Below are positions 43,850 to 58,157 of a stretch of 64,000 nt of DNA, piece after piece. The notes beneath the pieces were generated by a model. That model was not told where the DNA came from and did no database searches. It worked only from the letters and a program-made list of their open reading frames with translations. Positions within the stretch are counted from its first letter, which is position 1. Every line of letters starts with the position of its first letter. Both the position numbers and the translations under genes were made by a program. Source of the DNA: Candidatus Buchananbacteria bacterium (GTDB taxonomy: Bacteria; Patescibacteriota; Patescibacteriia; 2-01-FULL-39-33; JBAYJR01). The stretch covers positions 25,120-89,119 of the forward strand of contig JBAYJR010000002.1 in the NCBI GenBank assembly GCA_041665005.1, written 5' to 3'.

Positions 43850-44917
43850 ATGCCAAACATAGAAAATGATTGTTTAAAACTTGCTCAAATACTTTTGGAA
43901 CTAAAAAACCTTAAGTCAGAATTTACTGTGGCCTATCAAGAGGCCTTGGTTAGTCATGATTTGACTAGACCTAGAGAGTTAAAAAAACAGCTTAAGATTA
44001 AATTAGTAGAAATTAATAGCGAGGTTGCAAAATTAGAAGAAAAGACGGATCCTTATAATATAGGCTTAAGAAGGCGCTTGGCCAAAGAGAATGGTTTTAC
44101 ATATGTTAGTAATTTTTACAATGGTTCGGCGAGAGTTGCCAAAGGTCACAAGCGGTTTTGTATTGATCGTGCTGGTAAAGAGGTGGACCCGGAGAATACA
44201 AGCGGTAATGCGCATGATTATTTTGAGGATATCGCGGTAGTTAAAAAAGATGAAAAATATTTTTATGTTAATTCTTCTGGTCAGAAAATCAATGCTGAAA
44301 AATATCAGACGGCTTGTAATTTTTCCGAAGGTCTAGCTGCGGTTGTTAAAGACGAAAAACATTTTTTTATTAATCGAGCCGGCCGTAAAATTAGCTCAAA
44401 AATGTATGATTCTGCCCTTAGTTTTTCCGAAGGCTTGGCCGCTGTCGAAGAAGACAAAAAATGGTTTTATATTGATTATACTGGTAAAGATTTATTTTCT
44501 GAAAGATACGATGACGCCGGAATTTTTCATGAAGGCTTGGCCTGTGTTAAAAAAAATAATAAATATTTTTTTATAAATAAAGCTGGTCTATTGGCTATTC
44601 CAGAAAGATACGATAAGGCCTATAGTTTTTCGGCAGGAATCGCCTTAGTTAAAAAAGATGATAAGTGGTTTTATATTGATTGTGCTGGGCAGGAGATTGA
44701 TTCAAGGGGATATAAACCTGTAGAAAATTTTTGTCGGGGTTTTGCTTGGGTTAGCCAAAACGGAAAATATCTTGTTGTTAATACTGCTTTTGAGCAGATT
44801 AGTCCAACTAAATATGATTCTTTTAGAATTATAGAACAGGGGTTAGGCTGGGTTAAAAAAGATGGAAAATCTTTTTATGTTGATTATCGCGGTCAAAAAA
44901 TGTTTGACGCTGAGTAA
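43850..44917 (+). CDS. WG-repeat (KWG-type beta-propeller-like repeat) protein with a shared N-terminal helical module; tandem paralogue 1
   Basis: N-terminal MPNIENDCLKLAQILLELKNLKSEF module, then about 9 repeats of GLAxVKKDxKYFYIxxxGKxIxxEKYDxAxxFSEGLA. Confidence 0.7.
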   Translation: MPNIENDCLKLAQILLELKNLKSEFTVAYQEALVSHDLTRPRELKKQLKIKLVEINSEVAKLEEKTDPYNIGLRRRLAKENGFTYVSNFYNGSARVAKGHKRFCIDRAGKEVDPENTSGNAHDYFEDIAVVKKDEKYFYVNSSGQKINAEKYQTACNFSEGLAAVVKDEKHFFINRAGRKISSKMYDSALSFSEGLAAVEEDKKWFYIDYTGKDLFSERYDDAGIFHEGLACVKKNNKYFFINKAGLLAIPERYDKAYSFSAGIALVKKDDKWFYIDCAGQEIDSRGYKPVENFCRGFAWVSQNGKYLVVNTAFEQISPTKYDSFRIIEQGLGWVKKDGKSFYVDYRGQKMFDAE

Positions 44918-44926
44918 TTTTTATCT

Positions 44927-46000
44927 ATGCCAAATATAAAAACCAACTGCCAAGAACTTACTAACTTACTTTTGGCATTAAAAAACCTTAAGCCTGAGTT
45001 TGATTTGGCCTATCAAGAAGCCCTAGTTAGTCGTGACCTAACTAAGCTTAGAGAGTCCAAGAAGCAAATTGAAGGCAAAATAAAAGAACTAGAGGCCAAA
45101 CTTGACCCTTATAACATTGAACTACGAAAAAAACTAGCTGAAGAAAGCGGGTTTGACTTTGTTAATAATTTTCATGATGGTTGGGCTAAAGTTAGAAAGG
45201 ATGGAGAATATTTTTATGTTAATCAAGTCGGTAAAGCAATTAATTCCGAAAAATATGATGGTGCTGATGATTTTTCGGAAGGCCTAGCCTGGGTACATAT
45301 AAAGCACGAATATTTTTATATAGACCGTACCGGCGAAAGAACTAACTCGGAAACATATAGTAATGCTGGAACTTTTCATGAGGGCCTAGCTTGGATTGGA
45401 AAAAACGGAAAATACTTTTACATCAACCCAAAGGGTAAAATAGCGATTTCAGAAAAATATGACGACGCTGAAGATTTTTCTGAAGGTCTGGCCTCGGTTG
45501 CAAAAAATTTGCCAAAAAAGCTTGCCCATAGGCCTACCTATACCTATGTGTACATTAACCGCACTGGTAAAAGAATTAACTCGGAAACATATGATGCTGC
45601 TGGAATTTTTCATGAAGGCCTAGCCTGGGTTGAAAAAGACAGAGAATTTTTTTGTATCGACCACGCCGGTAAAACAATTATTTCGGAAAAATACGACGAA
45701 GTCGGGGATTTTTTTGACGGTTTGGCTCGAGTTAAAAAAGATGGAGAACACTTTTATATAGACCGTACCGGTAAAATCGTTATCTCAGCAAAATATGATG
45801 AAGCTGGAGATTTTTCGGAAGGCCTGGCTTTAGTTAAAAAAGATGGAGAATACTTTTATATAGACCGTGCCGGTAAAATGGCTATTTCGGAAAAATACGA
45901 CGACGCCGGAGATTTTTTTGAAGGCTTAGCTTTGGTTCAAAAAAACAACGAATACTACTACATTGATCATGCTGGTCGCAAAATATTTGACACGGAATAA
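44927..46000 (+). CDS. WG-repeat protein with shared N-terminal module; tandem paralogue 2
   Basis: Same architecture. Its 5' end is about 90% identical at the nucleotide level to paralogue 3. Confidence 0.7.
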   Translation: MPNIKTNCQELTNLLLALKNLKPEFDLAYQEALVSRDLTKLRESKKQIEGKIKELEAKLDPYNIELRKKLAEESGFDFVNNFHDGWAKVRKDGEYFYVNQVGKAINSEKYDGADDFSEGLAWVHIKHEYFYIDRTGERTNSETYSNAGTFHEGLAWIGKNGKYFYINPKGKIAISEKYDDAEDFSEGLASVAKNLPKKLAHRPTYTYVYINRTGKRINSETYDAAGIFHEGLAWVEKDREFFCIDHAGKTIISEKYDEVGDFFDGLARVKKDGEHFYIDRTGKIVISAKYDEAGDFSEGLALVKKDGEYFYIDRAGKMAISEKYDDAGDFFEGLALVQKNNEYYYIDHAGRKIFDTE

Positions 46001-46009
46001 TTTTTATTT

Positions 46010-47317
46010 ATGCTAAACACTGAACACAATTGCCAAGAACTTACCAATTTACTTCAGGAACTAAAAAACCTTAAGCCTGAGTTTGATTTGGCCTATCAAG
46101 AAGCCTTAATCAGCCGTGACCTGACTAAACTTAGAGAATTAAAGGTGGTGCTTAAAGATAAGGTAGAGAAGTTAGAGATGAAGATCGACCCTCACGATAT
46201 TGAATTGCGGAAAAAAATTGCTGAAAAAAATTTTTTTGATTTTGTTGATATTTTTTCCGAAGGCTTGGCCCTAGCAAGAAAGTCTAGAGTATATTCTGAT
46301 AGAGGATATTCTTATACTAACCGGGCTGGAAAAGTAATTAGTTCAGAGGTTTATAATGACGCTAGACGGTTTTCCGAAGGTTTGGCTGGGGTTACTACTA
46401 GTAATTATAGTAAAGGATGGTTTTTTATTGATCGTGCTGGTCAGGTAATTAATTCTGAAAAATATGATAATGTTCGTGATTTTTCCGAAGGCTTGGCTTG
46501 TGTTTGGAGAGGAAGTAAATGGTTTTATATTGACCAAAATGGCAATGATGTATTTAAAAAAAGATTTGATGCTGCTAATAGTTTTAGTAATGGATTGGCT
46601 TGTGTGGCTATAGATCATGATCATTTTTATATTGATCATACCGGTAAAAATGCTTTTTTAGAAAAGTATGACTTTGTGGATAATTTTCACGAAGATTTAG
46701 CTAGAGTGGGTAATTTTTCTGAGGGTGCTAATAATATGGACTATTTTTTTATTAATCGGGCTGGTCAAGCGATAAATCAAGAAAAGTATATAGAGGCTAA
46801 TAATTTTTTTGAAGGCCTGGCTGCGGTAAAAAAATATTATTCAGGTGGTTATAAGTATTCTTTCATTGATTCTACGGGAGTAGAAGTTATTCCGGCAAAG
46901 TATGACTATGCTACTAGATTTTTTGAAGGTTTGGCCCGAGTCAAAAGAAATGGCAAATTCTATTTTATTGATCACGCTGGCAAAGAGATAAATAGTGAAG
47001 GATATGACGGAGCCAGTGATTTTCATGAAGGCTTAGCTGCGGTTAAAACCAATAAAAAGGAAGAATGGTTCTACATTAACCAGATTGGCCAAAAAATTAG
47101 TCCGACTAGGTATTATTATGCCGGAAATTTTTCTGAAGGCGTAGCTTTGGTCAGAAAGGATAATAAAAACTTTTTGATTAATAAATTTGGTGAAGAAATT
47201 GGTTCGGATAAATATGATGGCGCCGAAAGTTATGGCGAGGGTTTGTATTTGGTAAGAAAAGGCTACGAGAACAAATTTTATATTGATCAGCGCGGTCGTA
47301 AAATATTTGACGCTTAA
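46010..47317 (+). CDS. WG-repeat protein with shared N-terminal module; tandem paralogue 3
   Basis: Same architecture, 435 aa. Confidence 0.7.
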   Translation: MLNTEHNCQELTNLLQELKNLKPEFDLAYQEALISRDLTKLRELKVVLKDKVEKLEMKIDPHDIELRKKIAEKNFFDFVDIFSEGLALARKSRVYSDRGYSYTNRAGKVISSEVYNDARRFSEGLAGVTTSNYSKGWFFIDRAGQVINSEKYDNVRDFSEGLACVWRGSKWFYIDQNGNDVFKKRFDAANSFSNGLACVAIDHDHFYIDHTGKNAFLEKYDFVDNFHEDLARVGNFSEGANNMDYFFINRAGQAINQEKYIEANNFFEGLAAVKKYYSGGYKYSFIDSTGVEVIPAKYDYATRFFEGLARVKRNGKFYFIDHAGKEINSEGYDGASDFHEGLAAVKTNKKEEWFYINQIGQKISPTRYYYAGNFSEGVALVRKDNKNFLINKFGEEIGSDKYDGAESYGEGLYLVRKGYENKFYIDQRGRKIFDA

Positions 47318-47329
47318 TAATTTTTATAT

Positions 47330-48400
47330 ATGCGAAACACTGAGCATAATTGCCAAGAACTTACTAATTTACTTCAGGAACTAAAAAACTTAAAGTCCGA
47401 ATTTGATGTGATTCATCAAGAGGCCTTGGTTAGCCGTGATTTGACTAAAATTAGAGAGCTTAAAAAACAAATTGAAAGTAAGGTGGTAGAATTGGAACCA
47501 AAAATAGATCCATATAATATAGAACTAAGAAAAGAAATAGCCAAGGAAAACGGTTTTGAATTTGTCGGTAATTTTCATGATGGCTGGGCGAGGGTTCAAA
47601 AGGATGGAGAATGGTTTTTTATTAGCCAAACCGGTAAAAAACTTAGCTGGGAAAAATATAAAGCTGTCTCTGATTTTCATGATGGTTTGGCTCGGATTAT
47701 TATAGATAACAAATATTTTTATCTTAATCAAATTGAAGAGGTGATAAATCAAAAAGGATATAGTGAGGCTAGTGATTTTTCGGAAGGTTTGGCTTGTGTT
47801 AAATATGGTTCATCTTATTATTTTATTGATCGTGAGGATAAAAGGGTTTTTGGAGAATATGTAGAGGCTAAGGGTTTTTCCGAAGGCTTGGCTTGGGTAA
47901 AAAATCAGCAGAAAAAATGGTATATTATTGATCGGACTGGTCAGGAAGTCGGCTCAGAAAAATATGATGGTGCTTTAAGTTTTTCTGAAGGAGTGGCCTG
48001 GGCCAATAAAGATGGACTTTGGTTTATTGTTGATCGTGATGGTAAAAAAATCAGTAACAAATGCTATGAGAGGGTTGAGAGTTTTCATGAAGGTTTGGCT
48101 CCAGTTACTTCTAGTTATGGTAAGGGTTGGTTTTTTATTGATCATTCTGAAAAAGAAGTAAGCCTAGCAAGATATGGTATGGCTGGTTATTTTTCGGAAG
48201 GCTTGGCTGCTGTTAAGCATGGTAGTAGTTATTTATATATTGATCATGCCGGCCAAGATGTATTTTTTGAAAGATACGACGTAAAGGCTGATTACTTTTA
48301 TGATGGTTTGGCTGAAGTTATAAAAGGCTCACTGAAATTTTATATTGATCATCGTGGTCAAGAAGTGTTTGGTAGCTGGCGCGTACAAGTTGATTGGTAA
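47330..48400 (+). CDS. WG-repeat protein with shared N-terminal module; tandem paralogue 4
   Basis: Same architecture, 356 aa. Confidence 0.7.
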   Translation: MRNTEHNCQELTNLLQELKNLKSEFDVIHQEALVSRDLTKIRELKKQIESKVVELEPKIDPYNIELRKEIAKENGFEFVGNFHDGWARVQKDGEWFFISQTGKKLSWEKYKAVSDFHDGLARIIIDNKYFYLNQIEEVINQKGYSEASDFSEGLACVKYGSSYYFIDREDKRVFGEYVEAKGFSEGLAWVKNQQKKWYIIDRTGQEVGSEKYDGALSFSEGVAWANKDGLWFIVDRDGKKISNKCYERVESFHEGLAPVTSSYGKGWFFIDHSEKEVSLARYGMAGYFSEGLAAVKHGSSYLYIDHAGQDVFFERYDVKADYFYDGLAEVIKGSLKFYIDHRGQEVFGSWRVQVDW

Positions 48401-48433
48401 TTTAGTTTAAAATAAACTTAATAAAAAATAATT

Positions 48434-48832
48434 ATGTCTAAAGCCAGCATGTATACGGACGGAGGCGCCCGGGGCAACCCTGGACCAGCGGGGATTGGGG
48501 TGGTAATTGAATTAGGGGGAACAATTTTTCGCTATAAAGAATTTATTGGTGTTGGCACCAATAATCAAGCGGAATATCAGGCGGTGCTTTTGGGTTTAAC
48601 TAAGGCGCAAGAATTAGGAGTGAAAGAGCTAGAATGTTTTTTGGACAGCGAATTAGTGGTGGAACAATTAAATTTAAATTATAAAGTTAAAGATAAAAAT
48701 TTAGGAGTATTGTTCGTTAAAGCTTGGAACTTAATTCATGGTTTTAAAAAAGTTACTTTTAAACATATTCCCCGGGAAAAAAATAAAGAAGCAGACCGGT
48801 TGGTTAATGAAGCTTTAGACGAAAGCGCCTAA
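48434..48832 (+). CDS. rnhA: ribonuclease HI
   Basis: YTDGGARGNPGPAGIGVV...AEYQAV..L and a C-terminal DxxxN...D active-site pattern. Confidence 0.9.
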   Translation: MSKASMYTDGGARGNPGPAGIGVVIELGGTIFRYKEFIGVGTNNQAEYQAVLLGLTKAQELGVKELECFLDSELVVEQLNLNYKVKDKNLGVLFVKAWNLIHGFKKVTFKHIPREKNKEADRLVNEALDESA

Positions 48833-48860
48833 ATTTTAAGTTATTAGTATTTTAGCAATT

Positions 48861-48889
48861 AAAAAAATCTACTGAAGTAGATTTTTTTA
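48861..48889. terminator. bidirectional rho-independent terminator between rnhA (+) and rnpB (-)
   Basis: aaaaaaa-atctact-gaa-gtagat-ttttttt. Confidence 0.7.
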
Positions 48890-49351
48890 TTATCCAAGTA
48901 AACCGATAAGCCGAATTCTGTCAGCCTAATTAAAGGCGGGTGATTATCTCTCTAGCCCCAACATTGCTGTTGGAGTCATGCTGCCTACCTTATTTGGCAT
49001 TGCACCGGGTAGGTGTTTTCCACGGCTGTCATCACTGACAGTCCCGCGTGGGCTCTTACTTTGGCCTAGCCGAAGCTTGGCTTATCCCGCGCATAGGCGG
49101 GCCCACGATTTCAACCTTACTTGTCCCACCATCGGTGGGATTTAGTCCACAAGGGACTCAAGCGGTATATTTTCTGTTGCACTTTCCCTGGGCTTGAAAT
49201 TTGCAGAAGTCTGCAGGACTTCTATAAACTTTGCTCCCGGTCGCTGTTAGCGATTACCTCTGAATTCCAATCCTAAGATTGAAAAACGGTGTTCGGACTT
49301 TCCTCAATGCGCTTTAACACGCACCGCAATCACCTGGTTTACTTGGATAAA
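48889..49351 (-). ncRNA. rnpB: RNase P RNA (bacterial type)
   Basis: On the minus strand, GAGGAAAGUCCGAACACC near the 5' end is the universally conserved P4 5' strand, and ACAGAAUUCGGCUUAUCGG near the 3' end is the P4 3' strand. The P1 stem pairs UAUCCAAGUAAACC with GGUUUACUUGGAUA. The region is GC-rich relative to its surroundings and has no ORF. A TTGACT-N17-TATGCT promoter lies at 49355..49383 on the minus strand. Confidence 0.85.
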
Positions 49352-49441
49352 CTTAGCATAGCATAATTTACAAAAAAAGTCAAGATAATGGCTTGTTTTT
49401 TTCTAAAAAAAATGGTAAATTTGTAAGAGAATAAAACAACC

Positions 49442-50845
49442 ATGAAACGTAGTGAAATATTTTTTGGCGCAATTTTGGTACCCGTTGATTTGTTAATGAT
49501 CATGTTGGCCAGTTTAACGGCCTATTGGATTCGCTTTGGCCAATATGCTAGCAGTTTACGGCCGGTTACTTTTAAATTGCCCTGGCAAACTTATTTGTGG
49601 TATAGCCTGTTAGTGGCCGCGGTCTGGTTGATAATTTTTGCTTTAGCTAAACTTTATGTTATCGCCGCCACGCGGTCGTGGCGAGAAGAATTTCGGCGGT
49701 TATTTTTTGCCTGCACCACTGGTTTACTGGTGGTTATTTTAATTGATTTTGCGCGGCATGAACTTTTTTCTTCGCGCTTTATTGTGTTAGCGGTGTGGTT
49801 GTTGTCCATTATTTATATTGGCTTTGGCCGGTGGTTAATTAGGCATTTACAACAACAATTATTGAGGCGGGGGATTGGTGTGCATCGGATTGTAATTATT
49901 GGTCAAGATAAAGCTAGCCAGGTTTTGACCCAGTATTTTAAAAATAATTATAAATTAGGCTATGTAGTGGTTAAGGTTTTTATTGATTTTAGTCCAACCA
50001 TTAAGCAAGAGTTGCAACAATTAATTCAGCAAGATAAGGTTGATGAAATTTTAGCCGGCTCGCCACATTTAGCCAAAACCGAATTGCAGGAATTATATGC
50101 TTTTTCTTACGAACATCATTTACCGTTAAAATATGTGGCTGATTTATTTGCCGCCCAAGCCCCCAAAATTGAGATTTCTTTTTTGGCCGGTATTCCTGTA
50201 GTAGAAGTAAAAAAAACCAAGTTGGATGGTTGGGGCCGAGTCGCTAAAAGATTGTCTGATTTAATTGGTGCAATTATTTTGATTATTATCTTTTCGCCGA
50301 TTATGTTGCTAGAAGCCTTGGCGATTAAATTAGATTCGGCTGGTCCAGTTTTTTTTGCTTATCAGCGGATTGGCCAAAACGGCAAAACTTTTCGTTATTT
50401 TAAATTTCGTTCCATGAAACACAATACTCATCACTTGCGGTATGATGATGAATTTGTGCTGCAACAACAAAATTTGCGTAATGGCACGCCAGTCATTAAA
50501 TTTAAAAATGATCCGCGGATTACCCGAGTGGGGAAAATTATTAGGCGGTTTAGTTTGGACGAATTGGCAGAATTATTTTTGGTGCTGATTGGTCAAATGA
50601 GCTTAGTCGGGCCCCGGCCTCATGAGGTGGAAGAAGTAGCGCGTTATGATCAGTGGCAAAAAAGAGTGTTAAATATTAAGCCGGGGATGACCGGTTTGGC
50701 CCAAGTTTCGGGTCGGTCAGATTTAGCGTTTAATCAGGAAGTAAATTTAGATATTTATTACATGGAACATTGGTCGTGGCTGCAAGATTTAGTTATTTTA
50801 GTAAAAACTCCCTTAGCAGTTTTGCGTAAAAGGCGAGCGGAATAA
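49442..50845 (+). CDS. undecaprenyl-phosphate hexose-1-phosphate transferase (WbaP/exopolysaccharide polyprenyl glycosylphosphotransferase family)
   Basis: Four N-terminal TM helices, then a bacterial sugar-transferase domain RLSDLIGAI...PVFFAYQRIGQNGKTFRYFKFRSM...LVGPRP. Confidence 0.88.
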   Translation: MKRSEIFFGAILVPVDLLMIMLASLTAYWIRFGQYASSLRPVTFKLPWQTYLWYSLLVAAVWLIIFALAKLYVIAATRSWREEFRRLFFACTTGLLVVILIDFARHELFSSRFIVLAVWLLSIIYIGFGRWLIRHLQQQLLRRGIGVHRIVIIGQDKASQVLTQYFKNNYKLGYVVVKVFIDFSPTIKQELQQLIQQDKVDEILAGSPHLAKTELQELYAFSYEHHLPLKYVADLFAAQAPKIEISFLAGIPVVEVKKTKLDGWGRVAKRLSDLIGAIILIIIFSPIMLLEALAIKLDSAGPVFFAYQRIGQNGKTFRYFKFRSMKHNTHHLRYDDEFVLQQQNLRNGTPVIKFKNDPRITRVGKIIRRFSLDELAELFLVLIGQMSLVGPRPHEVEEVARYDQWQKRVLNIKPGMTGLAQVSGRSDLAFNQEVNLDIYYMEHWSWLQDLVILVKTPLAVLRKRRAE

Positions 50846-50858: not shown

Positions 50859-51290
50859 TTACTTCGGTGGTTTGGTTTTTGGTTTAACTTTTACGACTAG
50901 CGCCTTAGTGGCACTGCCGCTAAAAATCATTGCGTTTAGCGGGGTAAGAACATCAATGATGTCATAGTCCTGCTTTATCTTTGCTAAGCCTTCCTTTAGG
51001 GCCGGCAGATAAGAAATGCTACTACAATCAAGGCTGGTATACTCCGTTGCTTCTAGTAGCAACAGCTCGTTACTAATCGTAACGATGGAAAAACTTGATT
51101 TTGCATAATGGTTCCGTACGCCGTGGTTGGTATCAGCTGCCCTTGCCTTGGCAAAACTTTTTTCAAATGGTATATATAGAGATTTATATAAATAGTTATA
51201 TACACCGCCGAATACTAGCAGAATTATCACAATTATTACTACTAGTGCAATAGCTGCTAGAGTTTTAGAGTTTTTGGTTGATATTTGCAT
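50859..51290 (-). CDS. hypothetical membrane-anchored protein
   Basis: Minus-strand ORF with an N-terminal TM helix and RBS aaggagg. A terminator hairpin at 50845..50882 overlaps its 3' end. Confidence 0.45.
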   Translation of the reverse strand: MQISTKNSKTLAAIALVVIIVIILLVFGGVYNYLYKSLYIPFEKSFAKARAADTNHGVRNHYAKSSFSIVTISNELLLLEATEYTSLDCSSISYLPALKEGLAKIKQDYDIIDVLTPLNAMIFSGSATKALVVKVKPKTKPPK

Positions 51291-51395
51291 TAGCTAAACA
51301 CCTCCTTTTTGTTATTAAACTAGCAGTTTTTTGATTTGTTGTCAAGTGGGCTAAAAGTTGCTAAAATATAAACACTAATTGACTAGTTATCATTT

Positions 51396-52493
51396 ATGAA
51401 AATTGCTTTGGTTCATGATCATTTAGCCCAAGATGGGGGAGCGGAACGGGTTTTAAAAATTATTCAACAAACCTTTGTTGGCGCGCCTACTTATACTTTA
51501 TTTTATAATCCGCAAAAAGCGGACCCTTTTTTTGCTAAACAAGATATTCGCACTTCTTGGTTGCAACAAATGCCAGGGATTACCAAACATTATCAATGGT
51601 ATTTAACTTTAATGCCCGCCGCGGTGGAAAGTTTAAAATTTGAAGAATATGATGTGGTTTTATCCGACACTTCTTCTTTTGCAAAAGGGATAATTACCGG
51701 ACCACAAACTTTGCATCTTTGTTACTGTCATACCCCCACTAGGTATATTTGGAGTGATCGCCATACTTACGTTAAAGAATTGCATTATAACCGCTTAGTT
51801 AAATTGGCTATTCCGGCCGTGCTTAGTCGTTTGCGTCAATGGGATTTTATGGCCGCGCAACGGCCGGATAAATTTTTGGCCAATTCCGCCTTGGTACAAA
51901 AACGGATTGCTAAATATTATCATCGGCCGTCGCAAATTATTCATCCGCCGGTAGAAACTAATAATTTTAAAATTGCCCCCAAGGTAGGAAATTATTTTTT
52001 AATTGGTGGCCGCTTGGTGGCTTATAAGCGTTATGATTTAGCCGTTAAAGCTTTTTCGCGGATTGGTTTACCTTTAAAAATTTTTGGTGAAGGTCCGGAA
52101 CTAGCTAATCTACAAAAATTGGCCAAAAAGAATATAGAATTTTTAGGCAAGGTTGATTATCAACAGTTGACTAAATTATATAGCGAGTGTTTGGCTTTTT
52201 TGCATCCGCAGGAAGAAGATTTTGGTATTACGGCGGTGGAAGCGATGGCGGCCGGCCGGCCAGTAATTGCTTATGCGGCCGGTGGTGCTTTAGAAACGGT
52301 TATACCAGGTGTCAGCGGACAGTTTATTGATGAACAAAGCTGGGAGGCAATTATTGACGCAGTGATTAGATTTAAACCGGAAAATCTTAATCCGTTGGCC
52401 ATAAAAAATCAGGCGGAAAAATTTTCAGTCGCTAATTTTCAGCAACAACTTTTACAAGTAGTCAACGATGGCTGGCAAGAATTTCGTAATTAA
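51396..52493 (+). CDS. glycosyltransferase family 4
   Basis: EEDFGITAVEAMAAGRPVIAYAAGG is the GT4 EX7E motif. Confidence 0.88.
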   Translation: MKIALVHDHLAQDGGAERVLKIIQQTFVGAPTYTLFYNPQKADPFFAKQDIRTSWLQQMPGITKHYQWYLTLMPAAVESLKFEEYDVVLSDTSSFAKGIITGPQTLHLCYCHTPTRYIWSDRHTYVKELHYNRLVKLAIPAVLSRLRQWDFMAAQRPDKFLANSALVQKRIAKYYHRPSQIIHPPVETNNFKIAPKVGNYFLIGGRLVAYKRYDLAVKAFSRIGLPLKIFGEGPELANLQKLAKKNIEFLGKVDYQQLTKLYSECLAFLHPQEEDFGITAVEAMAAGRPVIAYAAGGALETVIPGVSGQFIDEQSWEAIIDAVIRFKPENLNPLAIKNQAEKFSVANFQQQLLQVVNDGWQEFRN

Positions 52494-52498
52494 TCTTT

Positions 52499-53671
52499 AT
52501 GAACATTGGCGTAGATATTAGATGTTTAATTCGTGGTCGCTACAATGGCGTGGCGGAATACACTTATCAGCTGTTAACGGCCTTGTTTGCGTTAGATCAA
52601 AAAAATCAGTATTGGTTGTTTTATAATTCTTACAGTCAGGTAAGTTTGCCGCCATTTAATCAGGCCAACGTTCATTACGTGGGGTTTCGTTACCCTAATC
52701 GGTTATTAATGTTGGGATTAAAACTTTTTAACTGGCCCAAATTAGATCAATTGATTGCCCAAAGATATTTGTTGTATCCGGAACCGATAAAATTTGATTT
52801 ATTTTTTTTACCTAATTTAGATTTTGTGTGTTTTAGTAAAAAGGTACCAGTAGTTTTAACGGCTCATGACTTATCTTACGAATTATTTCCTTACTTTTTT
52901 TCGCAAAAAATATTATGGTGGCATCGTTTAATTAATCCGCGTCGCTTAGCCCAAACGGCGCAAAAGATTTTAGCGGTTTCGGAAAATACTAAAAATGATT
53001 TGGTTAAAATATATCAAATTCCCGAAACCAAGGTGGTGAAGGTTTATTCCGGCTTGGATCAAGCGTTTAAAAAGATCACGGACCAGGAAGCTTTGGCTTT
53101 GGCACGAACTAATTGGCGATTGCCGGAAAAATTTATTTTAGGCTTGGGTACGATTGAGCCGCGGAAAAATTGGGAGAGTCTAATTTTGGCCTGGCAACGG
53201 GCTAAAATTAAATACAATATTCCGCACCAGCTGGTTTTGGTGGGTAATCAAGGCTGGCTACAAAGTTCGGTTTTTAATCTAATTAAACAATCGCGCTTGC
53301 GCCAAGAAATCAGATATTTAAATTCCGTTCAGCCCGAGGAACGCGTTTGGTTGTATAATTTAGCGGATTTGTTTGTTTATCCTTCCTGGTATGAAGGTTT
53401 TGGTTTTCCGCCGTTGGAAGCCATGGCTTGTGGCTTGCCGACAATTATCGCTAGTAATTCCGCCTTGTCCGAAGTGGCTAGTGCCGGGGCGTTATTGGTT
53501 AATCCCGATAATATTATTGAAATCAGTGAAGCGATGCAACAGGTTTTGAGTGATGAAAATTTAAAAAATGATTTAGCTAAACGGGGCCAGCAAGTTGCCG
53601 GTAATTATCCTTGGTCAAAAACCGCCCAAGAAGTTTTGGCCGTGTTTAATCAGCTAAAAATTCAGTCATAA
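52499..53671 (+). CDS. glycosyltransferase family 4
   Basis: YEGFGFPPLEAMACGLPTIAS. Confidence 0.88.
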   Translation: MNIGVDIRCLIRGRYNGVAEYTYQLLTALFALDQKNQYWLFYNSYSQVSLPPFNQANVHYVGFRYPNRLLMLGLKLFNWPKLDQLIAQRYLLYPEPIKFDLFFLPNLDFVCFSKKVPVVLTAHDLSYELFPYFFSQKILWWHRLINPRRLAQTAQKILAVSENTKNDLVKIYQIPETKVVKVYSGLDQAFKKITDQEALALARTNWRLPEKFILGLGTIEPRKNWESLILAWQRAKIKYNIPHQLVLVGNQGWLQSSVFNLIKQSRLRQEIRYLNSVQPEERVWLYNLADLFVYPSWYEGFGFPPLEAMACGLPTIIASNSALSEVASAGALLVNPDNIIEISEAMQQVLSDENLKNDLAKRGQQVAGNYPWSKTAQEVLAVFNQLKIQS

Positions 53672-53673
53672 TT

Positions 53674-54786
53674 ATGAAAGTCATAATTGATGCTCGTTTT
53701 TGGGGGCCAACACACACTGGCTTGGGAGTTTATACTAAGCAATTTGTTTTAGCCTTGGCCGAAATTGATCAAATTAATCAGTATGTTTTATTATTGCGTC
53801 AAGAAGTGCTGGCCGAAATTAATTTGCCGGCTAATTTTAAAAAAGTAGTTTGTAATTTAAAACCCTATTCTCTTAAAGAGCAATTAATTTTGCCGATTAT
53901 TTTGGGGCGATTAAAACCAGATTTGGTGCATTTTACTTCGATTAATGTGCCAATTTTTTATTTTGGTAAATATTTAGTTACGGTACATGATTTAATTAAA
54001 CATCAATTTACGGGCAAAGAAATGACTACTCGCCAACAGAGTATTTATTGGCTAAAGCAGTTTGGTTATTTAGCAGTTTTTAGAGTAATTTGTAAATTAG
54101 CTAAATTAATTTTAGTGCCATCGCAGTCAGTAAAGTCCGAGTTAGTTAAATTTTATCCGTTTACGGCTAATAAAATCTCGGTTACTTACGAGGCGGCCAC
54201 TTTGACCCAGTTTAAGTCAGTAGTTAGTAATTTAGCCCAATATAATTTACCGCCAAAGTTTTGTGTTTATACGGGGAACCCTTACCCGCATAAAAATTTA
54301 GCCAGATTAATTAAAGCTTGGCCGGCGGTTTATACTGCCACTAGTCAACAGTTAGTTTTGGTCTGCGGTCGTAGTGTTTTTAGTCAAAGGATAAATAAAT
54401 TAGTTAAACAACAAAACGCCGAACAGTTTGTTAAGTTTGTTGGTTATGTTAGGGATCAAGATTTATTAGCGGTTTATCGCCAGGCCTCCGCTTATATTTT
54501 TCCAACTTTGGCTGAGGGGTTTGGTTTGCCGGGATTAGACGCAATGTTGGTTGGTTTGCCAGTGGCTTGTTCGGATATTCCAGTTTTGCGCGAGGTTTAT
54601 GGCCCGGCCGCCGTTTATTTTAATCCGCGGGATACTGTGGATATGGCCGCTAAAATTACTGAATTAATCAGTAACCAAGTACTTAGAACCAAAGTAATTG
54701 ATTTTGGCTTTATACAAGCGGCCAGGTATAGCTGGTTAACTTGCGCTCAAGAGACACTTAGACTGTATCAGTTGCTTGCTAAATAA
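53674..54786 (+). CDS. glycosyltransferase family 4
   Basis: AEGFGLPGLDAMLVGLPVACSD. Confidence 0.88.
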   Translation: MKVIIDARFWGPTHTGLGVYTKQFVLALAEIDQINQYVLLLRQEVLAEINLPANFKKVVCNLKPYSLKEQLILPIILGRLKPDLVHFTSINVPIFYFGKYLVTVHDLIKHQFTGKEMTTRQQSIYWLKQFGYLAVFRVICKLAKLILVPSQSVKSELVKFYPFTANKISVTYEAATLTQFKSVVSNLAQYNLPPKFCVYTGNPYPHKNLARLIKAWPAVYTATSQQLVLVCGRSVFSQRINKLVKQQNAEQFVKFVGYVRDQDLLAVYRQASAYIFPTLAEGFGLPGLDAMLVGLPVACSDIPVLREVYGPAAVYFNPRDTVDMAAKITELISNQVLRTKVIDFGFIQAARYSWLTCAQETLRLYQLLAK

Positions 54787-54831
54787 TGAGTTATAATTTA
54801 AGATTTAGTAGTGCTAGAATAATAAACTTAT

Positions 54832-56016
54832 ATGCCCCAACTTTGCCCCGAACTCACAATTAAGTTAGTCTCCCTCAAACAACTCAAAGCAGAGTTTGAT
54901 TTGGAATTGACTAACTTGTCCCAAACAGGCAAGACAGGGGATTTAGTTTTGGTTAGAGAAGCTAAAGCCAACCTAAATCAAACCCTCCAAGAGTTCCAGA
55001 AACAAATCACTCAAATTGAATGGCAAGAGTTTTATGCTTATTCTTCTCGAGAATTGATTGCGGTAGAAAAGAAAATAAATTATCACGAAATTAAAACTCT
55101 CGAAGGACATACTAATACTGTACAGACCCTCCAAGTCCTCCCTGATAGTCGCATTGTTTCAGGTAGTCATGATAATACTATTAAGATTTGGCAACCAGAT
55201 AGTCAGGGTAATTATCAAAATACGCAAACCCTTAAAGAACATGTTTATCTTGTGGATACTCTCCAAGCCCTCCCTGATGGTCGTATTGTTTCAGGTAGTG
55301 CTGATGGTACTATTAAAATCTGGCAAACAGATAGCCAGGGCAACTATCAAAACACCCAAACACTCGAAGGACACACTAATTGGGTATCCGCCCTGCAAGT
55401 CCTACCTGATGGCCTTATTGTTTCGGGTAGTGGTGATAACACTATCAAAATTTGGAAACCAGACAGCCAAGGCAACTATAAAAACACCCAAACCCTCACC
55501 CAAATCCTCAGAGGAAAGATTGAATCTGTCCTCACCTTGAAGGTTCTACCCGATGGCCGGATTGTTTCGGGTTGTCATGATAGAACTATTAAAATTTGGC
55601 AACCAGACAGTCAAGGTAACTATAAAAATACGCAAACCCTCAAAGGACATGTCGATCAGGTGCGTACCCTCCAAGCCTTCTCTGATGGTCGCATTGTTTC
55701 AGGTAGTGCTGATGGTACTATTAAAATCTGGCAAACAGATAGCCAGGGCAACTATCAAAACACCCAAACACTCGAGGGGCATACTAATGCTGTATACACT
55801 CTGCAAGTCCTCACCGATGGTCGCATTGTTTCAGGTAGTGGTGATAAGACCATTAAAATTTGGGAACTAGACAGTCAAAACGACTATCAAAACACCCAAA
55901 CACTCGAGGGGCATACTAGATGGGTAGACACCCTCCAAGTCCTCCCTGATGGCCGCATTGTTTCGGGTAGTGGTGATCACACTATTAAAATATGGGATGG
56001 TGATAAAGTAGATTAA
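54832..56016 (+). CDS. WD40-repeat (7-bladed) protein with the shared MPQLCPEL N-terminal module (family B, member 1)
   Basis: Seven repeats of LxGHxxxVxxLQVLPDGRIVSGSxDxTIKIW. The repeats are nearly identical at the nucleotide level (55281..55380 compared with 55691..55790). Confidence 0.8.
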   Translation: MPQLCPELTIKLVSLKQLKAEFDLELTNLSQTGKTGDLVLVREAKANLNQTLQEFQKQITQIEWQEFYAYSSRELIAVEKKINYHEIKTLEGHTNTVQTLQVLPDSRIVSGSHDNTIKIWQPDSQGNYQNTQTLKEHVYLVDTLQALPDGRIVSGSADGTIKIWQTDSQGNYQNTQTLEGHTNWVSALQVLPDGLIVSGSGDNTIKIWKPDSQGNYKNTQTLTQILRGKIESVLTLKVLPDGRIVSGCHDRTIKIWQPDSQGNYKNTQTLKGHVDQVRTLQAFSDGRIVSGSADGTIKIWQTDSQGNYQNTQTLEGHTNAVYTLQVLTDGRIVSGSGDKTIKIWELDSQNDYQNTQTLEGHTRWVDTLQVLPDGRIVSGSGDHTIKIWDGDKVD

Positions 56017-56026
56017 ATAAATTTAT

Positions 56027-57085
56027 ATGCCCCAACTTTGCCCCGAACTCACTACCAAACTAGTCTCTCTCAAACAACTCAAACAAGAGTTCGATTTGGA
56101 ATTATCTGGCCTACCTCAAACAGGTAAGACAGGGGATTTAGCCTTGGTTAGAGAAGCTAAGAATAAATTAGTGCAGGGAATTAAAGAACTTCAAAAAAGT
56201 CTTTGGCCGTTAGAATATACGGAATTAACTTTTGAAAATTTTGAAGCCCAATATGAATTCCAGAAAAACCTTCTCCTAAACTCAGGCCTGCTAAAAACCC
56301 TCACCACTGGCGGATTAGGCATTGAAGCAATTGATAACAAAGAATATCCCATACCCACCTTAGAACAGATTGAAGAAATGATGCTAGAGAAACGAGAGTT
56401 TTTAAAAACTAAAATACCACAAGGCTTTGTTAAGTTAGTCCTTGTTCCACTCGGCCTACCTCTAGATTCCTTGATTAAGGCCTATGGTGACACTCTAAAC
56501 GAACACTATCGGCAAGGCAAGCTCTTGGACACCAAAAATAAACCCTTAGAGCTTGGGGAAGAGTCTATTGTTGGTTGCGCTAGGTATACAGAGGCCGAAG
56601 CCACAGGAGACTTAGTATATTTCCCCCAAGAATACTCTAAAACTACTCACCAAGGTAAAACCAAAAAACAACTTCTACTCATCCAAGCCTGGCAAGTCCT
56701 ACTAATTGAAGACTTGCCCGATCTTCCAGCCGAAGGTCGGAGTAAAATCAAGGCTAAACGCCAGCAACAAGAAGCTAACCAATCACCTAATTATTATCTT
56801 AAACAACTCCAAAACGACCCTCAGTATAAAGGTGAACAGGGTCTAACCCCAGAATCATGGTTAATTTATGCCTTAAGCCACTTAACCCAAACCAATCAAG
56901 TAATTGATAATTATGAGGGTTCGAGTAAGGGTTGTTATCTGCTTAGCGTTTGTTTCAAAAAATTTGGCTACGTGTCGTATGTCTATTTCTACCGTAAACT
57001 TGCGCAGGTTATTTTTGATCAACATGATCCGGCCGCCGGTTCTTATTCTAACGTTTCCAGCCGTTCGGCGGTGAGTATTCTTTAA
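56027..57085 (+). CDS. hypothetical protein with the shared MPQLCPEL N-terminal module and an unknown C-terminal domain (family B, member 2)
   Basis: Its first ~150 nt, including 12 nt upstream of the ATG, are about 85-90% identical to the WD40 gene's 5' end. Its C-terminal domain is homologous to the next gene. Confidence 0.7.
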   Translation: MPQLCPELTTKLVSLKQLKQEFDLELSGLPQTGKTGDLALVREAKNKLVQGIKELQKSLWPLEYTELTFENFEAQYEFQKNLLLNSGLLKTLTTGGLGIEAIDNKEYPIPTLEQIEEMMLEKREFLKTKIPQGFVKLVLVPLGLPLDSLIKAYGDTLNEHYRQGKLLDTKNKPLELGEESIVGCARYTEAEATGDLVYFPQEYSKTTHQGKTKKQLLLIQAWQVLLIEDLPDLPAEGRSKIKAKRQQQEANQSPNYYLKQLQNDPQYKGEQGLTPESWLIYALSHLTQTNQVIDNYEGSSKGCYLLSVCFKKFGYVSYVYFYRKLAQVIFDQHDPAAGSYSNVSSRSAVSIL

Positions 57086-57095
57086 ATAAATTTGT

Positions 57096-58157
57096 ATGCC
57101 CCAACTTTGCCCCGAACTTACTTCCAAACTAGCCTCCCTCAAACAGCTCAAACAACAGTTTGATTTGGAATTTACTAAAATTAAAAGTCTAGACTCTAAA
57201 AAATCCGATAATCTTATTTTCATCAGAGAAACTAAAATTAAACTAGAGCAAGGCTTAGCAGAATTTTCAGACCTTTTCTGGCCATTTGAAAATACTGAAT
57301 TAAATTGGGAAAATTTTGAAACCCAATATGAATCCCAGAAAAACCTTCTTATCAAGACCGGCTTATTAAAGAAAATTTCAACTGGCGAACTAGGTATTAA
57401 GGCAATTGATAAGAAGGAATATCCCATACTTACATTAGAACAGATTAAAGAAATGATGTTAGAAAAAAGAGATTTCTTTAAAACCAAAATTAATCAAGGT
57501 TTTGTTAAACTAGCTCTTGTTCCCTTTGGCTTACCAATTAGCTCTCTAATAAAGGCTTATGACAAGGCCCTAACCGAACATCATCAACAAGGCAAACTCT
57601 TGGACACCAAAAATCAACCCTTAATGCTTACGGAAGAGCCTATTAAAGATTGGGCTGGATTTGTAGAGGCCGAAACCACAGGAGATTTAGTATATTTTCC
57701 CCAAGCATACTCTAAAACTACTCACCAAGGTAAAACCAAACAAGAACTTTTGTCCAACCAAGCCTGGCAAGTCCTATTACTTGAAGACCTACCCGACCTT
57801 CCACCCGAAGGCCAAGGTAAAATCATCGATCATCGCCAGCAACCAGAAGCTAACCAATCACCCAATAACTATCTTAAACAGCTCCAAACCAACCCTCAGT
57901 ATAAAGGTGAACAAGGTTTAACCCCAGAATCTTGGATAACCTATGCCTTAGGCCACTTAGAACAAACCAATCAGGTGATTGATAATTATGAGGGTTCGGG
58001 TAAGGCTTGCTACTTGCTTAGTATTTTTTTTAAAGAAACTGGCGGCGTGCCGAACGCCTGTTTCAGCCGTAGCCTTGCAGAGGTCGGTTTGGTTCAGCGC
58101 GCTCCGGGCGATCCCAATCCCGACTTTGCCGGCCGTTTTGGGGTGAGTATTTCTTAA
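57096..58157 (+). CDS. hypothetical protein, family B member 3 (paralogue of 56027..57085)
   Basis: Collinear with member 2 across the domain body (DLVYFPQxYSKTTHQGKTK, NYEGSxKxCYLLS). Confidence 0.7.
   Translation: MPQLCPELTSKLASLKQLKQQFDLEFTKIKSLDSKKSDNLIFIRETKIKLEQGLAEFSDLFWPFENTELNWENFETQYESQKNLLIKTGLLKKISTGELGIKAIDKKEYPILTLEQIKEMMLEKRDFFKTKINQGFVKLALVPFGLPISSLIKAYDKALTEHHQQGKLLDTKNQPLMLTEEPIKDWAGFVEAETTGDLVYFPQAYSKTTHQGKTKQELLSNQAWQVLLLEDLPDLPPEGQGKIIDHRQQPEANQSPNNYLKQLQTNPQYKGEQGLTPESWITYALGHLEQTNQVIDNYEGSGKACYLLSIFFKETGGVPNACFSRSLAEVGLVQRAPGDPNPDFAGRFGVSIS

What the first reader, a model, noticed from the sequence alone, without database searches (positions are those of the whole stretch)
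43850..58157. Seven-gene family sharing a ~50-aa N-terminal helical module fused to different repeat or unknown C-terminal domains, at two loci
Four tandem genes (43850, 44927, 46010, 47330) begin MPNIxxxCxELTNLLxELKNLKxEFDLAYQEALVSRDLTK... and continue into WG/KWG-type repeats. Three further tandem genes (54832, 56027, 57096) begin MPQLCPELTxKLVSLKQLKxEFDLEL... and continue into a 7-bladed WD40 propeller (B1) or a shared unknown ~260-aa domain (B2, B3). The two N-terminal modules are recognisably related (MP..C.EL..L..LK.LK.EFDL) although the C-terminal domains are unrelated. A conserved N-terminal module on otherwise variable protein-interaction domains is the architecture of polymorphic effector or surface-protein families, for example a shared export, sorting or docking domain. 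Nothing in this window identifies its function.
Basis: seen in the sequence. Interest (0 to 1): 0.78.

Follow-up and report, generated by a model that had tools for sequence, protein, structure and literature searches.

The report
Shared hairpin handle on recognition proteins
Seven genes of an uncultured ultra-small bacterium (Candidatus Buchananbacteria, Patescibacteria) start with the same undescribed 60-residue two-helix "handle" and end in different ligand-binding domains, one of them the kind that retroelements hypermutate. The handle probably couples these binders to each other or to a common partner.

Summary
**Observation confirmed.** All seven ORFs exist as described. Their N-termini are homologous: a profile built only from other organisms finds exactly these seven among 265 window ORFs (E 1e-15 to 6e-9, next 0.23).

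**The module**
- It is a two-helix hairpin of about 60 residues, at the extreme N-terminus in 93% of 192 members.
- It has a near-invariant Cys (97%) and an LKxLKxEFDLE motif.
- It matches nothing in Pfam, NCBIfam, PADLOC or PDB.
- It precedes at least 24 unrelated C-terminal domains, mostly binding scaffolds.

**The C-terminal domains**
- A1-A4 are WG-repeat beta-propellers and B1 is a WD40 propeller.
- The "unknown" B2/B3 domain is a target of diversity-generating retroelements (DGR). Module-bearing homologues in two other Patescibacteria have VR/TR pairs that differ only at template adenines.
- No DGR lies in about 116 kb sampled from this genome, which holds at least 31 family members.

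**Evolution.** Modules group by genome, not by C-domain. They are under purifying selection with saturated synonymous sites.

**Best reading (inferred).** The module is a homotypic coupling or oligomerisation adaptor, functionally like the effector-associated domains of conflict systems. An export-signal role is unsupported but not excluded.

**Novelty.** It is an undescribed domain, and a new variant of a known kind.

The parts
43850..44917 (+). A1, 355 aa. N-module at residues 1 to about 66 (nt 43850-44047, with a 7-aa insertion in helix 2), a short linker helix, then a WG-repeat domain.
   Evidence: ORF. WG_beta_rep E 1.3e-44, 6 repeats. External N-module profile E 5.9e-11.
44927..46000 (+). 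A2, 357 aa. N-module hairpin at residues 1-59 (nt 44927-45103), linker helix at 64-74, then a WG-repeat beta-propeller.
46010..47317 (+). A3, 435 aa. N-module (nt 46010-46186) plus a WG-repeat domain.
   Evidence: WG_beta_rep E 2.3e-57, 9 repeats. External profile E 1.9e-13.
47330..48400 (+). A4, 356 aa. N-module (nt 47330-47506) plus a WG-repeat domain.
   Evidence: WG_beta_rep E 9.5e-39, 7 repeats. External profile E 1e-15.
54832..56016 (+). B1, 394 aa. N-module at residues 1-63 (nt 54832-55020) plus a 7-repeat WD40 propeller. The repeats are 71% identical to one another and vary at a few positions.
   Evidence: WD40 E 5.2e-64, 7 stretches. External profile E 6.1e-9. Tandem period of 132 nt, 6.7 copies. 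Repeat identity 0.59-0.84.
56027..57085 (+). B2, 352 aa (WCW02_01130). N-module at residues 1-63 (nt 56027-56215) plus an alpha/beta domain of about 280 aa, homologous to DGR variable proteins of Patescibacteria.
57096..58157 (+). B3, 353 aa (WCW02_01135). N-module at residues 1-65 (nt 57096-57290, loop variant with a 5-aa insertion) plus the same DGR-variable-protein-like domain.
   Evidence: 66% identical to B2. External profile E 2.1e-13.
56957..57082 (+). VR-equivalent hypervariable segment of B2 (last 42 codons).
   Evidence: This is the least conserved block among 19 paralogues. Columns aligned to the Asn codons of the L007 template repeat have 9.1 distinct residues against 4.6 in other VR columns, and 96% are NNY-encodable against 73% in background columns. 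The 3' end CCGTTCGGCGGTGAGTATT resembles the conserved VR end.
58032..58154 (+). VR-equivalent hypervariable segment of B3 (last 41 codons).
   Evidence: Same analyses as for B2.

Best explanation
**What is shown.** The seven genes belong to a family, so far seen almost only in Patescibacteria, defined by a portable N-terminal module of about 60 residues. The module is a two-helix hairpin that starts at the protein's first residues. It has a near-invariant Cys at the cap of helix 1 and a conserved LKxLKxEFDLE face.

The module is fused to many unrelated C-terminal domains, nearly all of them ligand-recognition scaffolds. In this window they are:
- WG-repeat beta-propellers (A1-A4);
- a WD40 propeller with near-identical repeats (B1);
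- the C-type-lectin-like variable-protein domain that diversity-generating retroelements (DGRs) hypermutate in related organisms (B2, B3).

**What is inferred.** The C-domains bind varied ligands. The hairpin has no catalytic features and acts as a coupling or oligomerisation adaptor. Hairpins of different family members in one cell would associate with each other, for example as four-helix bundles, and/or with one shared partner. That would make the binders multivalent or connect them to a common downstream component.

The candidate partner, seen only in other genomes, is a MoxR-like AAA_5 ATPase. Functionally this is the logic of effector-associated or Death-like adaptor domains in bacterial conflict systems. 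The proteins are predicted to be cytoplasmic.
For: **Homology and position of the module**
- 289 representative proteins reach E<=1e-3 in an exhaustive search of 1.84 billion.
- 179 of 192 modules start within 5 residues of the N-terminus. Cys is present in 180 of 185 and Phe in 93%.
- The hairpin is predicted with high confidence in two different contexts.

**Promiscuity**
- At least 24 unrelated C-terminal clusters follow the module: CLec-type, type D, WG, WD40, HEAT-like, type C, LRR_6, DUF5701 and others.

**Adaptor-like evolution**
- Modules are more alike within a genome across different C-domains (mean 46% identity; 93% in L007, 57% in this organism without the WG set, 51% in L003). Between genomes with the same C-domain the mean is 26.5%.
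- This is not recent gene conversion. dS is saturated (0.7 to above 2) while dN/dS is 0.09-0.5.

**Gene arrangement**
- Members sit in same-strand tandem arrays with 9-12 nt spacers.
- A WD40 member lies directly upstream of a CLec-type member at three loci of this organism.

**Link to a partner**
- AAA_5 ATPase genes lie beside members in L003, L007, L008, L013 and L015.
- P0104 is the module fused to the C-terminal 125 aa of that ATPase family: 90% identity to the L007 protein and 35-51% to three others.

**Analogy**
- WG repeats elsewhere sit behind TIR, Ser/Thr-kinase, SLH or zinc-ribbon domains. The module therefore occupies the output or anchor position.
- The features Kaur et al. list for EADs (small, helical, terminal, paralogous copies in adjacent genes, closer within a lineage) match (PMC7159879).
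- DGR-diversified CLec sensors associated with MoxR ATPases are described in PMC10907252.

**Localisation**
- No signal peptide or transmembrane segment.
Against: - No interaction has been observed or modelled. Only monomer predictions could be run.
- No hub component (AAA_5, vWA, STAND) lies in the window or in about 116 kb of this genome.
- The AAA_5 association is not statistically established among species-representative loci: 2 of 13 module-bearing loci against 1 of 47 others.
- Unlike classic EADs, no copy fused to a core NTPase domain was found. Most fusion partners look like sensors rather than enzymatic effectors.
- High pTM values (0.91 and 0.83) may mean the hairpin packs on its own C-domain rather than being free to pair.
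- The role of the invariant Cys is unexplained by this model.
- This genome holds two module subtypes, the WG set against the rest (33.5% identity). That argues against a single common partner.
Confidence: 0.5

Rival explanations
1. **Export or surface-sorting signal.** The hairpin would target the variable binders to a Patescibacteria-specific secretion or surface-display route. This would resemble the helix-turn-helix N-domains of type VII secretion substrates (WXG100, LXG, PE/PPE). The binders would then act outside the cell, for example in attachment to host cells.
For: - The architecture parallels PE/PPE and LXG families: a conserved N-terminal helical hairpin, variable C-termini, tandem arrays, and at least 31 copies in a small genome.
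- DGR variable proteins of other bacteria are mostly surface-anchored binders (PMC8144416). Reviews assume a host-attachment role in CPR (PMC10221324).
- In CPR targets the module sits where other DGR targets carry a signal peptide or lipobox, and it has an invariant Cys.
- Cell-envelope genes flank cluster B: Bac_transf, three GT4 glycosyltransferases, DUF4012 and DUF11.
Against: - There is no hydrophobic segment.
- There is no hit to WXG100, LXG, PE, PPE or any secretion-related family at E<=1.
- The loop motif is T-G-D/N-L, not W-x-G.
- No secretion ATPase lies next to any of the loci examined.
- WD40, LRR and HEAT partners, and the AAA_5 fusion, are typical of cytoplasmic systems.
- Cellular DGR targets can be cytoplasmic.
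Confidence: 0.2
2. **Self-oligomerisation only.** The hairpin would simply make each protein a homodimer or trimer to raise avidity of weak, variable binding sites. There would be no mixing between paralogues and no shared partner.
For: - The hydrophobic pattern is amphipathic and heptad-like.
- The only weak database matches are to coiled coils and designed helical bundles.
- Avidity through multimerisation is how the phage DGR protein Mtd achieves recognition (PMC2408619, listed; its content is from my own knowledge).
- Two module subtypes coexist in one genome.
Against: - Homo-oligomerisation alone does not predict that modules of unrelated proteins stay similar within a genome while synonymous sites are saturated.
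- It does not predict the conserved charged face LKxLKxEFDLE and the invariant Cys.
- It does not predict the fusion to the ATPase tail.
Confidence: 0.2
3. **Not a functional protein module.** The resemblance would be generic coiled-coil composition, or a conserved DNA/RNA element at the 5' ends (a recombination or translation signal).
For: - The module is short, helical and rich in K/E/L.
- The top hit of the exhaustive search was a repeat artefact.
Against: - An independent external profile finds only the seven genes.
- 93% of matches start at the N-terminus, with an invariant Cys.
- Amino-acid conservation spans organisms with 34-51% GC, with saturated dS and dN/dS below 0.5.
- There is no DNA-level repeat beyond the coding similarity.
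Confidence: 0.02

Closest known systems
Effector-associated domains (EAD1-EAD10) and bacterial Death-like adaptors of NTP-dependent conflict systems (Kaur, Burroughs, Iyer, Aravind 2020, PMC7159879)
   Same: - Both are small, non-enzymatic, mostly all-helical domains at a protein terminus.
- Several paralogous copies lie in adjacent genes, with further copies elsewhere in the genome (up to about 19 per genome there, at least 31 here).
- Copies are closer within a lineage or neighbourhood than across lineages.
- Both are associated with MoxR-type AAA ATPases and with WD40-type repeats.
- The proposed role in both cases is homotypic coupling.
   Different: - There is no sequence match to any Pfam EAD model.
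- No copy was found on a core VMAP, STAND or GAP1 component. The only link is one fusion to the non-ATPase tail of an AAA_5 protein.
- Fusion partners here are mainly recognition domains rather than enzymatic effectors.
- The host is unicellular, genome-reduced Patescibacteria rather than multicellular bacteria.
- The invariant N-terminal Cys has no counterpart.
DGR variable proteins with a C-type-lectin fold (Mtd, TvpA, AvpA, and the CPR 'clade 2' targets of Roux et al. 2021, PMC8144416)
   Same: - The B2/B3 C-domain is homologous to proteins with bona fide VR/TR pairs, Avd and RT.
- The variable segment is C-terminal and ends in a conserved motif.
- The weak fold matches are to FGE/CLec-like proteins, including TvpA.
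- The lack of transmembrane or known domains was already noted for CPR targets.
   Different: - No TR, RT or Avd was found near B2/B3 or in about 116 kb of the genome.
- About 21 diverged paralogues (47-70% identity) are present, rather than one or a few targets.
- The N-terminal module is shared with non-DGR proteins, and I found no description of that in the papers I could read.
PE/PPE, WXG100 and LXG N-terminal helical domains of type VII secretion substrates
   Same: Both show an N-terminal helix-turn-helix hairpin, variable C-terminal domains, tandem gene arrays and large lineage-specific expansions. This comparison is from my own knowledge of those families.
   Different: There is no sequence match, no WxG or YxxxD/E motif in the equivalent place, and no secretion ATPase seen nearby. 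The partners are beta-propellers and CLec domains rather than toxins or PGRS repeats.
Fungal and bacterial NLR-type WD40 arrays with highly conserved internal repeats
   Same: The seven B1 repeats are 71% identical, with variation confined to a few positions. In NLR WD40 arrays this pattern is linked to rapid diversification of recognition; that link is from my own knowledge.
   Different: B1 has no NTPase domain, only the 60-aa module. Positive selection was not tested.

Membership tests
WG_beta_rep (PF14903) repeat proteins (A1-A4) | Multiple WG repeats above the Pfam gathering score | tested here: met
   131-194 bits against a cut-off of 25.6, with 6-9 repeats. The AF2 model is an all-beta propeller.
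WD40 propeller (B1) | Seven WD40 repeats | tested here: met
   PF00400 at 210 bits, 7 stretches.
DGR variable protein (B2, B3) | Homology to proteins whose C-terminal VR pairs with a TR that differs only at adenines, next to Avd and RT | tested here: met
   - L007: VR 2324-2438 against TR 2743-2857, with 12 of 12 mismatches at TR adenines, plus bAvd and RVT_1.
- L013: 13 of 13 mismatches at TR adenines.
- Both targets are full-length homologues with the N-module.
DGR variable protein (B2, B3) | Variability concentrated at positions that are AAY (Asn) codons in the template | tested here: met
   Across 19 paralogues there are 9.1 distinct residues at these columns against 4.6 at other VR columns. 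96% are NNY-encodable against 73% in background columns. This uses the TR of another organism as a proxy.
DGR variable protein (B2, B3) | Cognate TR, reverse transcriptase and Avd in the same genome | tested here: not met
   None was found in the window, L001, L002 or L069 (about 116 kb). The rest of the MAG could not be read, so this remains open for the whole genome.
DGR variable protein (B2, B3) | C-type-lectin / FGE-like fold of the VR-bearing domain | tested here: inconclusive
- Foldseek finds nothing at E below 1.
- No PDB sequence hit.
Effector-associated domains (EADs) | Sequence match to a described EAD family | tested here: not met
   No Pfam hit at E<=1 other than scattered coiled-coil noise.
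Effector-associated domains (EADs) | Small non-enzymatic terminal domain, paralogous copies in adjacent genes, closer within a lineage | tested here: met
Effector-associated domains (EADs) | One copy fused to a core component (VMAP, STAND, GAP1) of a conflict system | tested here: not met
   No such fusion exists among 192 members. The only link is P0104, fused to the C-terminal tail of an AAA_5 protein.
Type VII secretion substrates (WXG100 / LXG / PE / PPE) | Family profile match, WxG or YxxxD/E motif, linked EssC/EccC ATPase | tested here: not met
   No Pfam or NCBIfam hit, and the loop motif is TG[DN]L. No such ATPase appears in the Pfam annotations of the loci examined. The whole genome was not examined.
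Sec / lipoprotein-exported proteins | N-terminal hydrophobic signal sequence (plus a lipobox for lipoproteins) | tested here: not met
   The maximum hydropathy in the first 40 residues is at most 0.5, against 2.3-3.3 in membrane controls. No upstream in-frame extension exists. No dedicated signal-peptide predictor was available.

The most novel reading that the evidence does not exclude
Patescibacteria would possess a dedicated recognition repertoire of their own. Dozens of germ-line paralogues (beta-propellers, LRR and HEAT arrays, C-type-lectin domains), plus DGR-hypermutated lectin domains, would all plug through one Cys-capped hairpin adaptor into a common hub, such as a MoxR-like ATPase/vWA pair. 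This would be a minimal, modular analogue of the antigen-sensor conflict systems so far tied to multicellular bacteria. It would also answer where and how the enigmatic CPR DGR targets act.
Probability: 0.2. Interest if true: 0.85.

Novelty: new variant of a known kind. Interest (0 to 1): 0.62.

Why it matters
**An open question becomes testable.** DGRs are strongly enriched in Patescibacteria. Their targets there were reported to carry no recognisable transmembrane or conserved domain, which left open whether they work inside or outside the cell (PMC8144416).

**What this finding adds.** It gives those targets a defined, searchable N-terminal domain. The same domain also heads WD40, WG, LRR and HEAT-like proteins. 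DGR targets are therefore one branch of a larger family of modular recognition proteins.

**Concrete experiments follow:**
- What does the hairpin bind?
- Does it oligomerise?
- What does the invariant Cys do?

**It also shows a contrast worth explaining.** This organism keeps about 21 diverged paralogues with a DGR-like variability pattern but no nearby retroelement.

If the module turns out to be a plain dimerisation helix pair, the result is a useful annotation rather than new biology.

Tried and rejected
- **Word-indexed search with the 7-sequence N-module alignment:** nothing found, although family members are in that database. I treat this as a sensitivity failure, not absence.
- **First scan of species-representative genomes with the module pattern:** nothing found. 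The source MAG is evidently not a representative.
- **Exact-sequence look-ups:** these failed for B2, A2, P0010, P0004, P0003 and P0020. Most contigs of the MAG could therefore not be read, and the presence of an RT could not be settled.
- **P0085, the top hit of the exhaustive search (2888 aa):** rejected as the summed score of more than 20 weak tandem repeats of 4-6 bits each.
- **Foldseek of B2 against PDB:** no hit at E below 1. The afdb50 library was unavailable.
- **Viral-contig scans:** no relatives found, or the alignment was unusable.
- **Promoter and terminator scan:** counts no higher than in shuffled sequence, so uninformative.
- **vWA assignment of the 710-aa protein next to the L007 DGR:** only VWA_2 at E 0.026 and DUF444 at E 0.0013, both below cut-off, although a DxSGS motif is present. 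Left as a possibility.
- **My first two attempts at the within- versus between-genome identity table:** both were flawed by alignment handling. Only one search is used.
- **Considered and rejected:** lipoprotein (no h-region), F-box (no profile match; two long helices rather than three short ones), and RiPP leader (the proteins are 350-435 aa globular proteins).

Full report
**1.

The window has seven + strand ORFs at the reported coordinates:
- A1 43850-44917
- A2 44927-46000
- A3 46010-47317
- A4 47330-48400
- B1 54832-56016
- B2 56027-57085
- B3 57096-58157

Spacers within each cluster are 9-12 nt, and no ORF has an in-frame upstream extension of more than three codons.

Domain content:
- A1-A4 carry 6-9 WG_beta_rep repeats.
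- B1 carries seven WD40 repeats.
- B2 and B3 match nothing in Pfam, NCBIfam or PADLOC.

Context:
- Cluster A lies between recJ and an RNase H gene.
- Cluster B lies after a sugar-transferase/GT4 glycosyltransferase block and before DUF4012 and DUF11 proteins.

B2 is 100% identical to a protein named 'MAG: hypothetical protein WCW02_01130 [Candidatus Buchananbacteria bacterium]'. The source is therefore a Patescibacteria (CPR) genome.

**2. The N-terminal similarity is homology, not coiled-coil noise**

- Profile-profile comparison of the A and B modules gives 92.8% probability, E 3.9e-7.
- Each profile finds only the other group among 265 window ORFs.
- The strongest test used a profile built only from 19 homologues in other organisms. 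It retrieves all seven genes at E 1e-15 to 6e-9, with the next ORF at 0.23. The A-type modules score as well as the B-type.
- An exhaustive HMMER search of 1.84 billion representative proteins with a 34-sequence profile finds 289 proteins at E<=1e-3 and 65 at E<=1e-10.
- The top hit of that search is an artefact of many weak repeats.

Among 192 module-bearing proteins:
- 179 start the module within five residues of the N-terminus.
- A Cys at the cap of helix 1 is present in 180 of 185.
- A Phe in the EFDLE motif is present in 93%.

AlphaFold2 predicts the same two-helix hairpin in B2 (helices 6-27 and 35-59; pLDDT 95, pTM 0.91) and in A2 (helices 4-35 and 39-59; pLDDT 94).

The module matches no Pfam family and no solved structure beyond scattered sub-threshold coiled-coil hits.

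**3. What the C-terminal domains are**

*B1.* This is a WD40 propeller whose seven repeats are 59-84% identical, with variation at a few positions.

*B2/B3.* Their domain is the informative one.
- It has 84 homologues in a 5.8-billion-protein collection. About 20 of these are in the same MAG at 47-68% identity.

The decisive evidence for B2/B3 is genomic.
- In L007 (Patescibacteria, GCA_018896455.1), a full-length homologue with the N-module lies directly upstream of bAvd and an RVT_1 reverse transcriptase. Its last 115 nt pair with a template repeat at 89.6% identity, and all 12 mismatches are at template adenines.
- In L013 (Candidatus Azambacteria), two module-bearing homologues flank the same arrangement, with 13 of 13 mismatches at adenines.
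- Seven further species-representative loci with this domain, without the module, have RT and/or Avd within 8 kb.

So the B2/B3 domain is a recurrent target of diversity-generating retroelements.

Two further C-domain types behind the module, here called C and D, share the VR-bearing C-terminal 80 residues with it. hhalign gives 94% probability, E about 1e-7, against 0.1% for an unrelated control.

**4. Are B2 and B3 themselves being hypermutated?**

Their last roughly 42 codons are the least conserved part among 19 paralogues of the MAG.

The columns that align with Asn (AAY) codons of the L007 template are the most variable:

| Column set | Distinct residues | NNY-encodable |
|---|---|---|
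| Columns aligned to template Asn codons | 9.1 | 96% |
| Other VR columns | 4.6 | 90% |
| Variable columns elsewhere | 5.8 | 73% |

The last roughly 24 nt are conserved at the DNA level, with the same Arg and Ser codons in all six copies for which I have DNA.

However, no template repeat, RT or Avd exists in the window or in three other contigs of the organism, about 116 kb in total. I could not read the remaining contigs. The paralogues therefore carry the imprint of DGR diversification. Whether it is ongoing (remote targets) or historical is open.

**5. The family as a whole**

Behind the module I found at least 24 unrelated C-terminal clusters:
- CLec-type (81, inflated by how the sequences were collected)
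- type D (15)
- WG (11)
- WD40 (8)
- a HEAT-like repeat (7)
- type C (5)
- LRR_6 (4)
- DUF5701, other repeats and singletons

Nearly all identifiable ones are binding scaffolds.

This organism has at least 31 members: about 21 CLec-type, at least 4 WD40, at least 2 type C and 4 WG. They sit in tandem arrays scattered among housekeeping genes. A WD40 member lies directly upstream of a CLec-type member at three loci.

Another organism (L003) has six members with four kinds of C-domain in one array.

Homologues of the CLec-type domain also occur without the module in Chloroflexota, Atribacterota, Asgard and other archaea. Full-length module-bearing matches are in Patescibacteria lineages, plus six contigs whose titles say 'Gammaproteobacteria'. 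I did not verify that label.

**6. How the module evolves**

Mean module identities:

| Comparison | Mean identity |
|---|---|
| Same genome, different C-domains (all) | 46% |
| L007 | 93% |
| This organism, excluding the WG genes | 57% |
| L003 | 51% |
| Different genomes, same C-domain | 26.5% |

This is not recent homogenisation. Synonymous sites between the window paralogues are saturated (dS 0.7 to above 2), while dN/dS in the module is 0.09-0.5. In the WG genes the module is more constrained (dN 0.17-0.24) than the propeller (dN 0.41-0.63).

Loop variants of the module do not segregate with C-domain type (alignment), which indicates repeated shuffling. The WG set (A1-A4) forms a second module subtype in this genome, 33.5% identical to the others.

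**7. Mechanism (inferred)**

The module has four relevant properties:
- It is a 60-residue hairpin with no catalytic features.
- It is always terminal and is fused to many alternative binding domains.
- It co-evolves within a genome.
- It is found in adjacent genes.

That profile is the one Kaur et al. used to define effector-associated domains as homotypic coupling adaptors.

WG repeats elsewhere follow TIR, kinase, SLH or zinc-ribbon domains. The module therefore sits in the output or anchor position.

In other genomes, module genes neighbour MoxR-like AAA_5 ATPases (L003, L007, L008, L013, L015). One protein (P0104) is the module fused to the C-terminal 125 residues of that ATPase family. 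L007 may also encode a divergent vWA protein, though the evidence is weak. DGR-diversified lectin sensors linked to MoxR/vWA systems have been proposed as cytoplasmic antigen sensors in multicellular bacteria.

I therefore favour a coupling or oligomerisation adaptor acting in the cytoplasm, with confidence about 0.5. Nothing in this window provides the hub, and the ATPase association is not statistically secured.

The alternatives are:
- an export or sorting signal analogous to PE/PPE or LXG (about 0.2);
- plain self-oligomerisation for avidity (about 0.2).

The invariant Cys is unexplained under all of them.

**8. Comparison with what is known, and verdict**

B2/B3 are new members of a known kind: CPR DGR variable-protein homologues. 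Published surveys describe such targets as lacking recognisable domains.

The N-module is not in Pfam, NCBIfam, PADLOC or PDB, and I found no description of it in the papers I could read. The key CPR DGR paper, Paul et al. 2017, was not available, so prior mention cannot be excluded. The module behaves like a known class of adaptor but fails sequence membership and the 'fused to a core component' criterion.

Overall this is a real, statistically solid, previously unannotated domain family with an inferred function. I rate it a new variant of a known kind, of moderate to high interest.

Noticed in passing
window 55094-55995 (B1): The seven WD40 repeats of B1 are 59-84% identical to each other (132-nt period, 72% matches at the DNA level). 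Differences cluster at a few positions after the GH dipeptide and in the SxDxT turn. This pattern is known from rapidly diversifying NLR-type WD40 arrays.
   Followed up: partly
window 56001-58000: GC skew turns negative (-0.135) and AT skew strongly positive (+0.148) only over B2/B3. The rest of the window has positive GC skew throughout.
   Followed up: no
window 8001-14000: This stretch has markedly lower G+C (0.30-0.33) than the rest of the window (0.35-0.41).
   Followed up: no
window 52499-54786: The two GT4 glycosyltransferases just upstream of cluster B also pass the Pfam cut-off for 'GT4-conflict' (PF20706: 37.0 and 29.2 bits against 26). They match generic Glycos_transf_1 far better. 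They follow a Bac_transf gene, so an envelope-polysaccharide role is more likely.
   Followed up: no
window 48434-48832: An RNase H / RVT_3-type gene lies 33 nt downstream of the WG cluster. It is probably housekeeping RNase HI, and no reverse transcriptase domain is present.
   Followed up: partly
L069 8620-9699: A further CLec-type paralogue of the same organism has ACG in place of the ATG start codon (…TTTCT ACG CCC CAA CTT TGC…). Gene callers therefore start it 25 codons downstream, without helix 1 of the module. It may be a pseudogene, a switched-off copy or a non-canonical start.
   Followed up: no
L002 1950-3772 and 8824-13032; L069 7446-9699: In this organism a WD40 member lies directly upstream of a CLec-type (or type C) member at three separate loci, including B1-B2 in the window. 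This suggests that these two kinds work as pairs.
   Followed up: partly
L007 1384-12701: One 12-kb stretch of another Patescibacterium combines several elements: a module-bearing DGR target, Avd, RT, a 710-aa protein with a DxSGS motif (weak VWA_2/DUF444 hits), two Bro-N proteins, two module-bearing type D genes, an AAA_14/DUF4143 ATPase and an AAA_5 ATPase. It may be a mobile or defence island.
   Followed up: partly
L003 470-2329 and 8502-9488: A 328-aa module-bearing protein shares its C-terminal domain of about 230 aa with the C-terminus of an upstream 619-aa protein that lacks the module. This is a further example of domain shuffling in the family.
   Followed up: no
P0023, P0032, P0040, P0049, P0052 (homologues of B2): A subset of CLec-type homologues replaces the module with a different conserved N-terminus (…LIDQLYGPP…GQKKLxDFKKKxIPKPE…). 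Others have long charged N-terminal extensions. The variable domain has therefore acquired several alternative N-terminal heads.
   Followed up: no
L009, L010, L011, L025, L027, L030: Six contigs with full-length module-bearing homologues carry record titles 'uncultured Gammaproteobacteria bacterium' (automated TPA assemblies; G+C 0.37-0.44). Either the label is wrong or the family reaches beyond Patescibacteria.
   Followed up: no
database behaviour: The word-indexed protein search returned nothing for the module alignment although members are present. A2 has no self-hit in that collection, whereas B2 does. Absence of hits from that tool should not be read as absence of relatives.
   Followed up: partly
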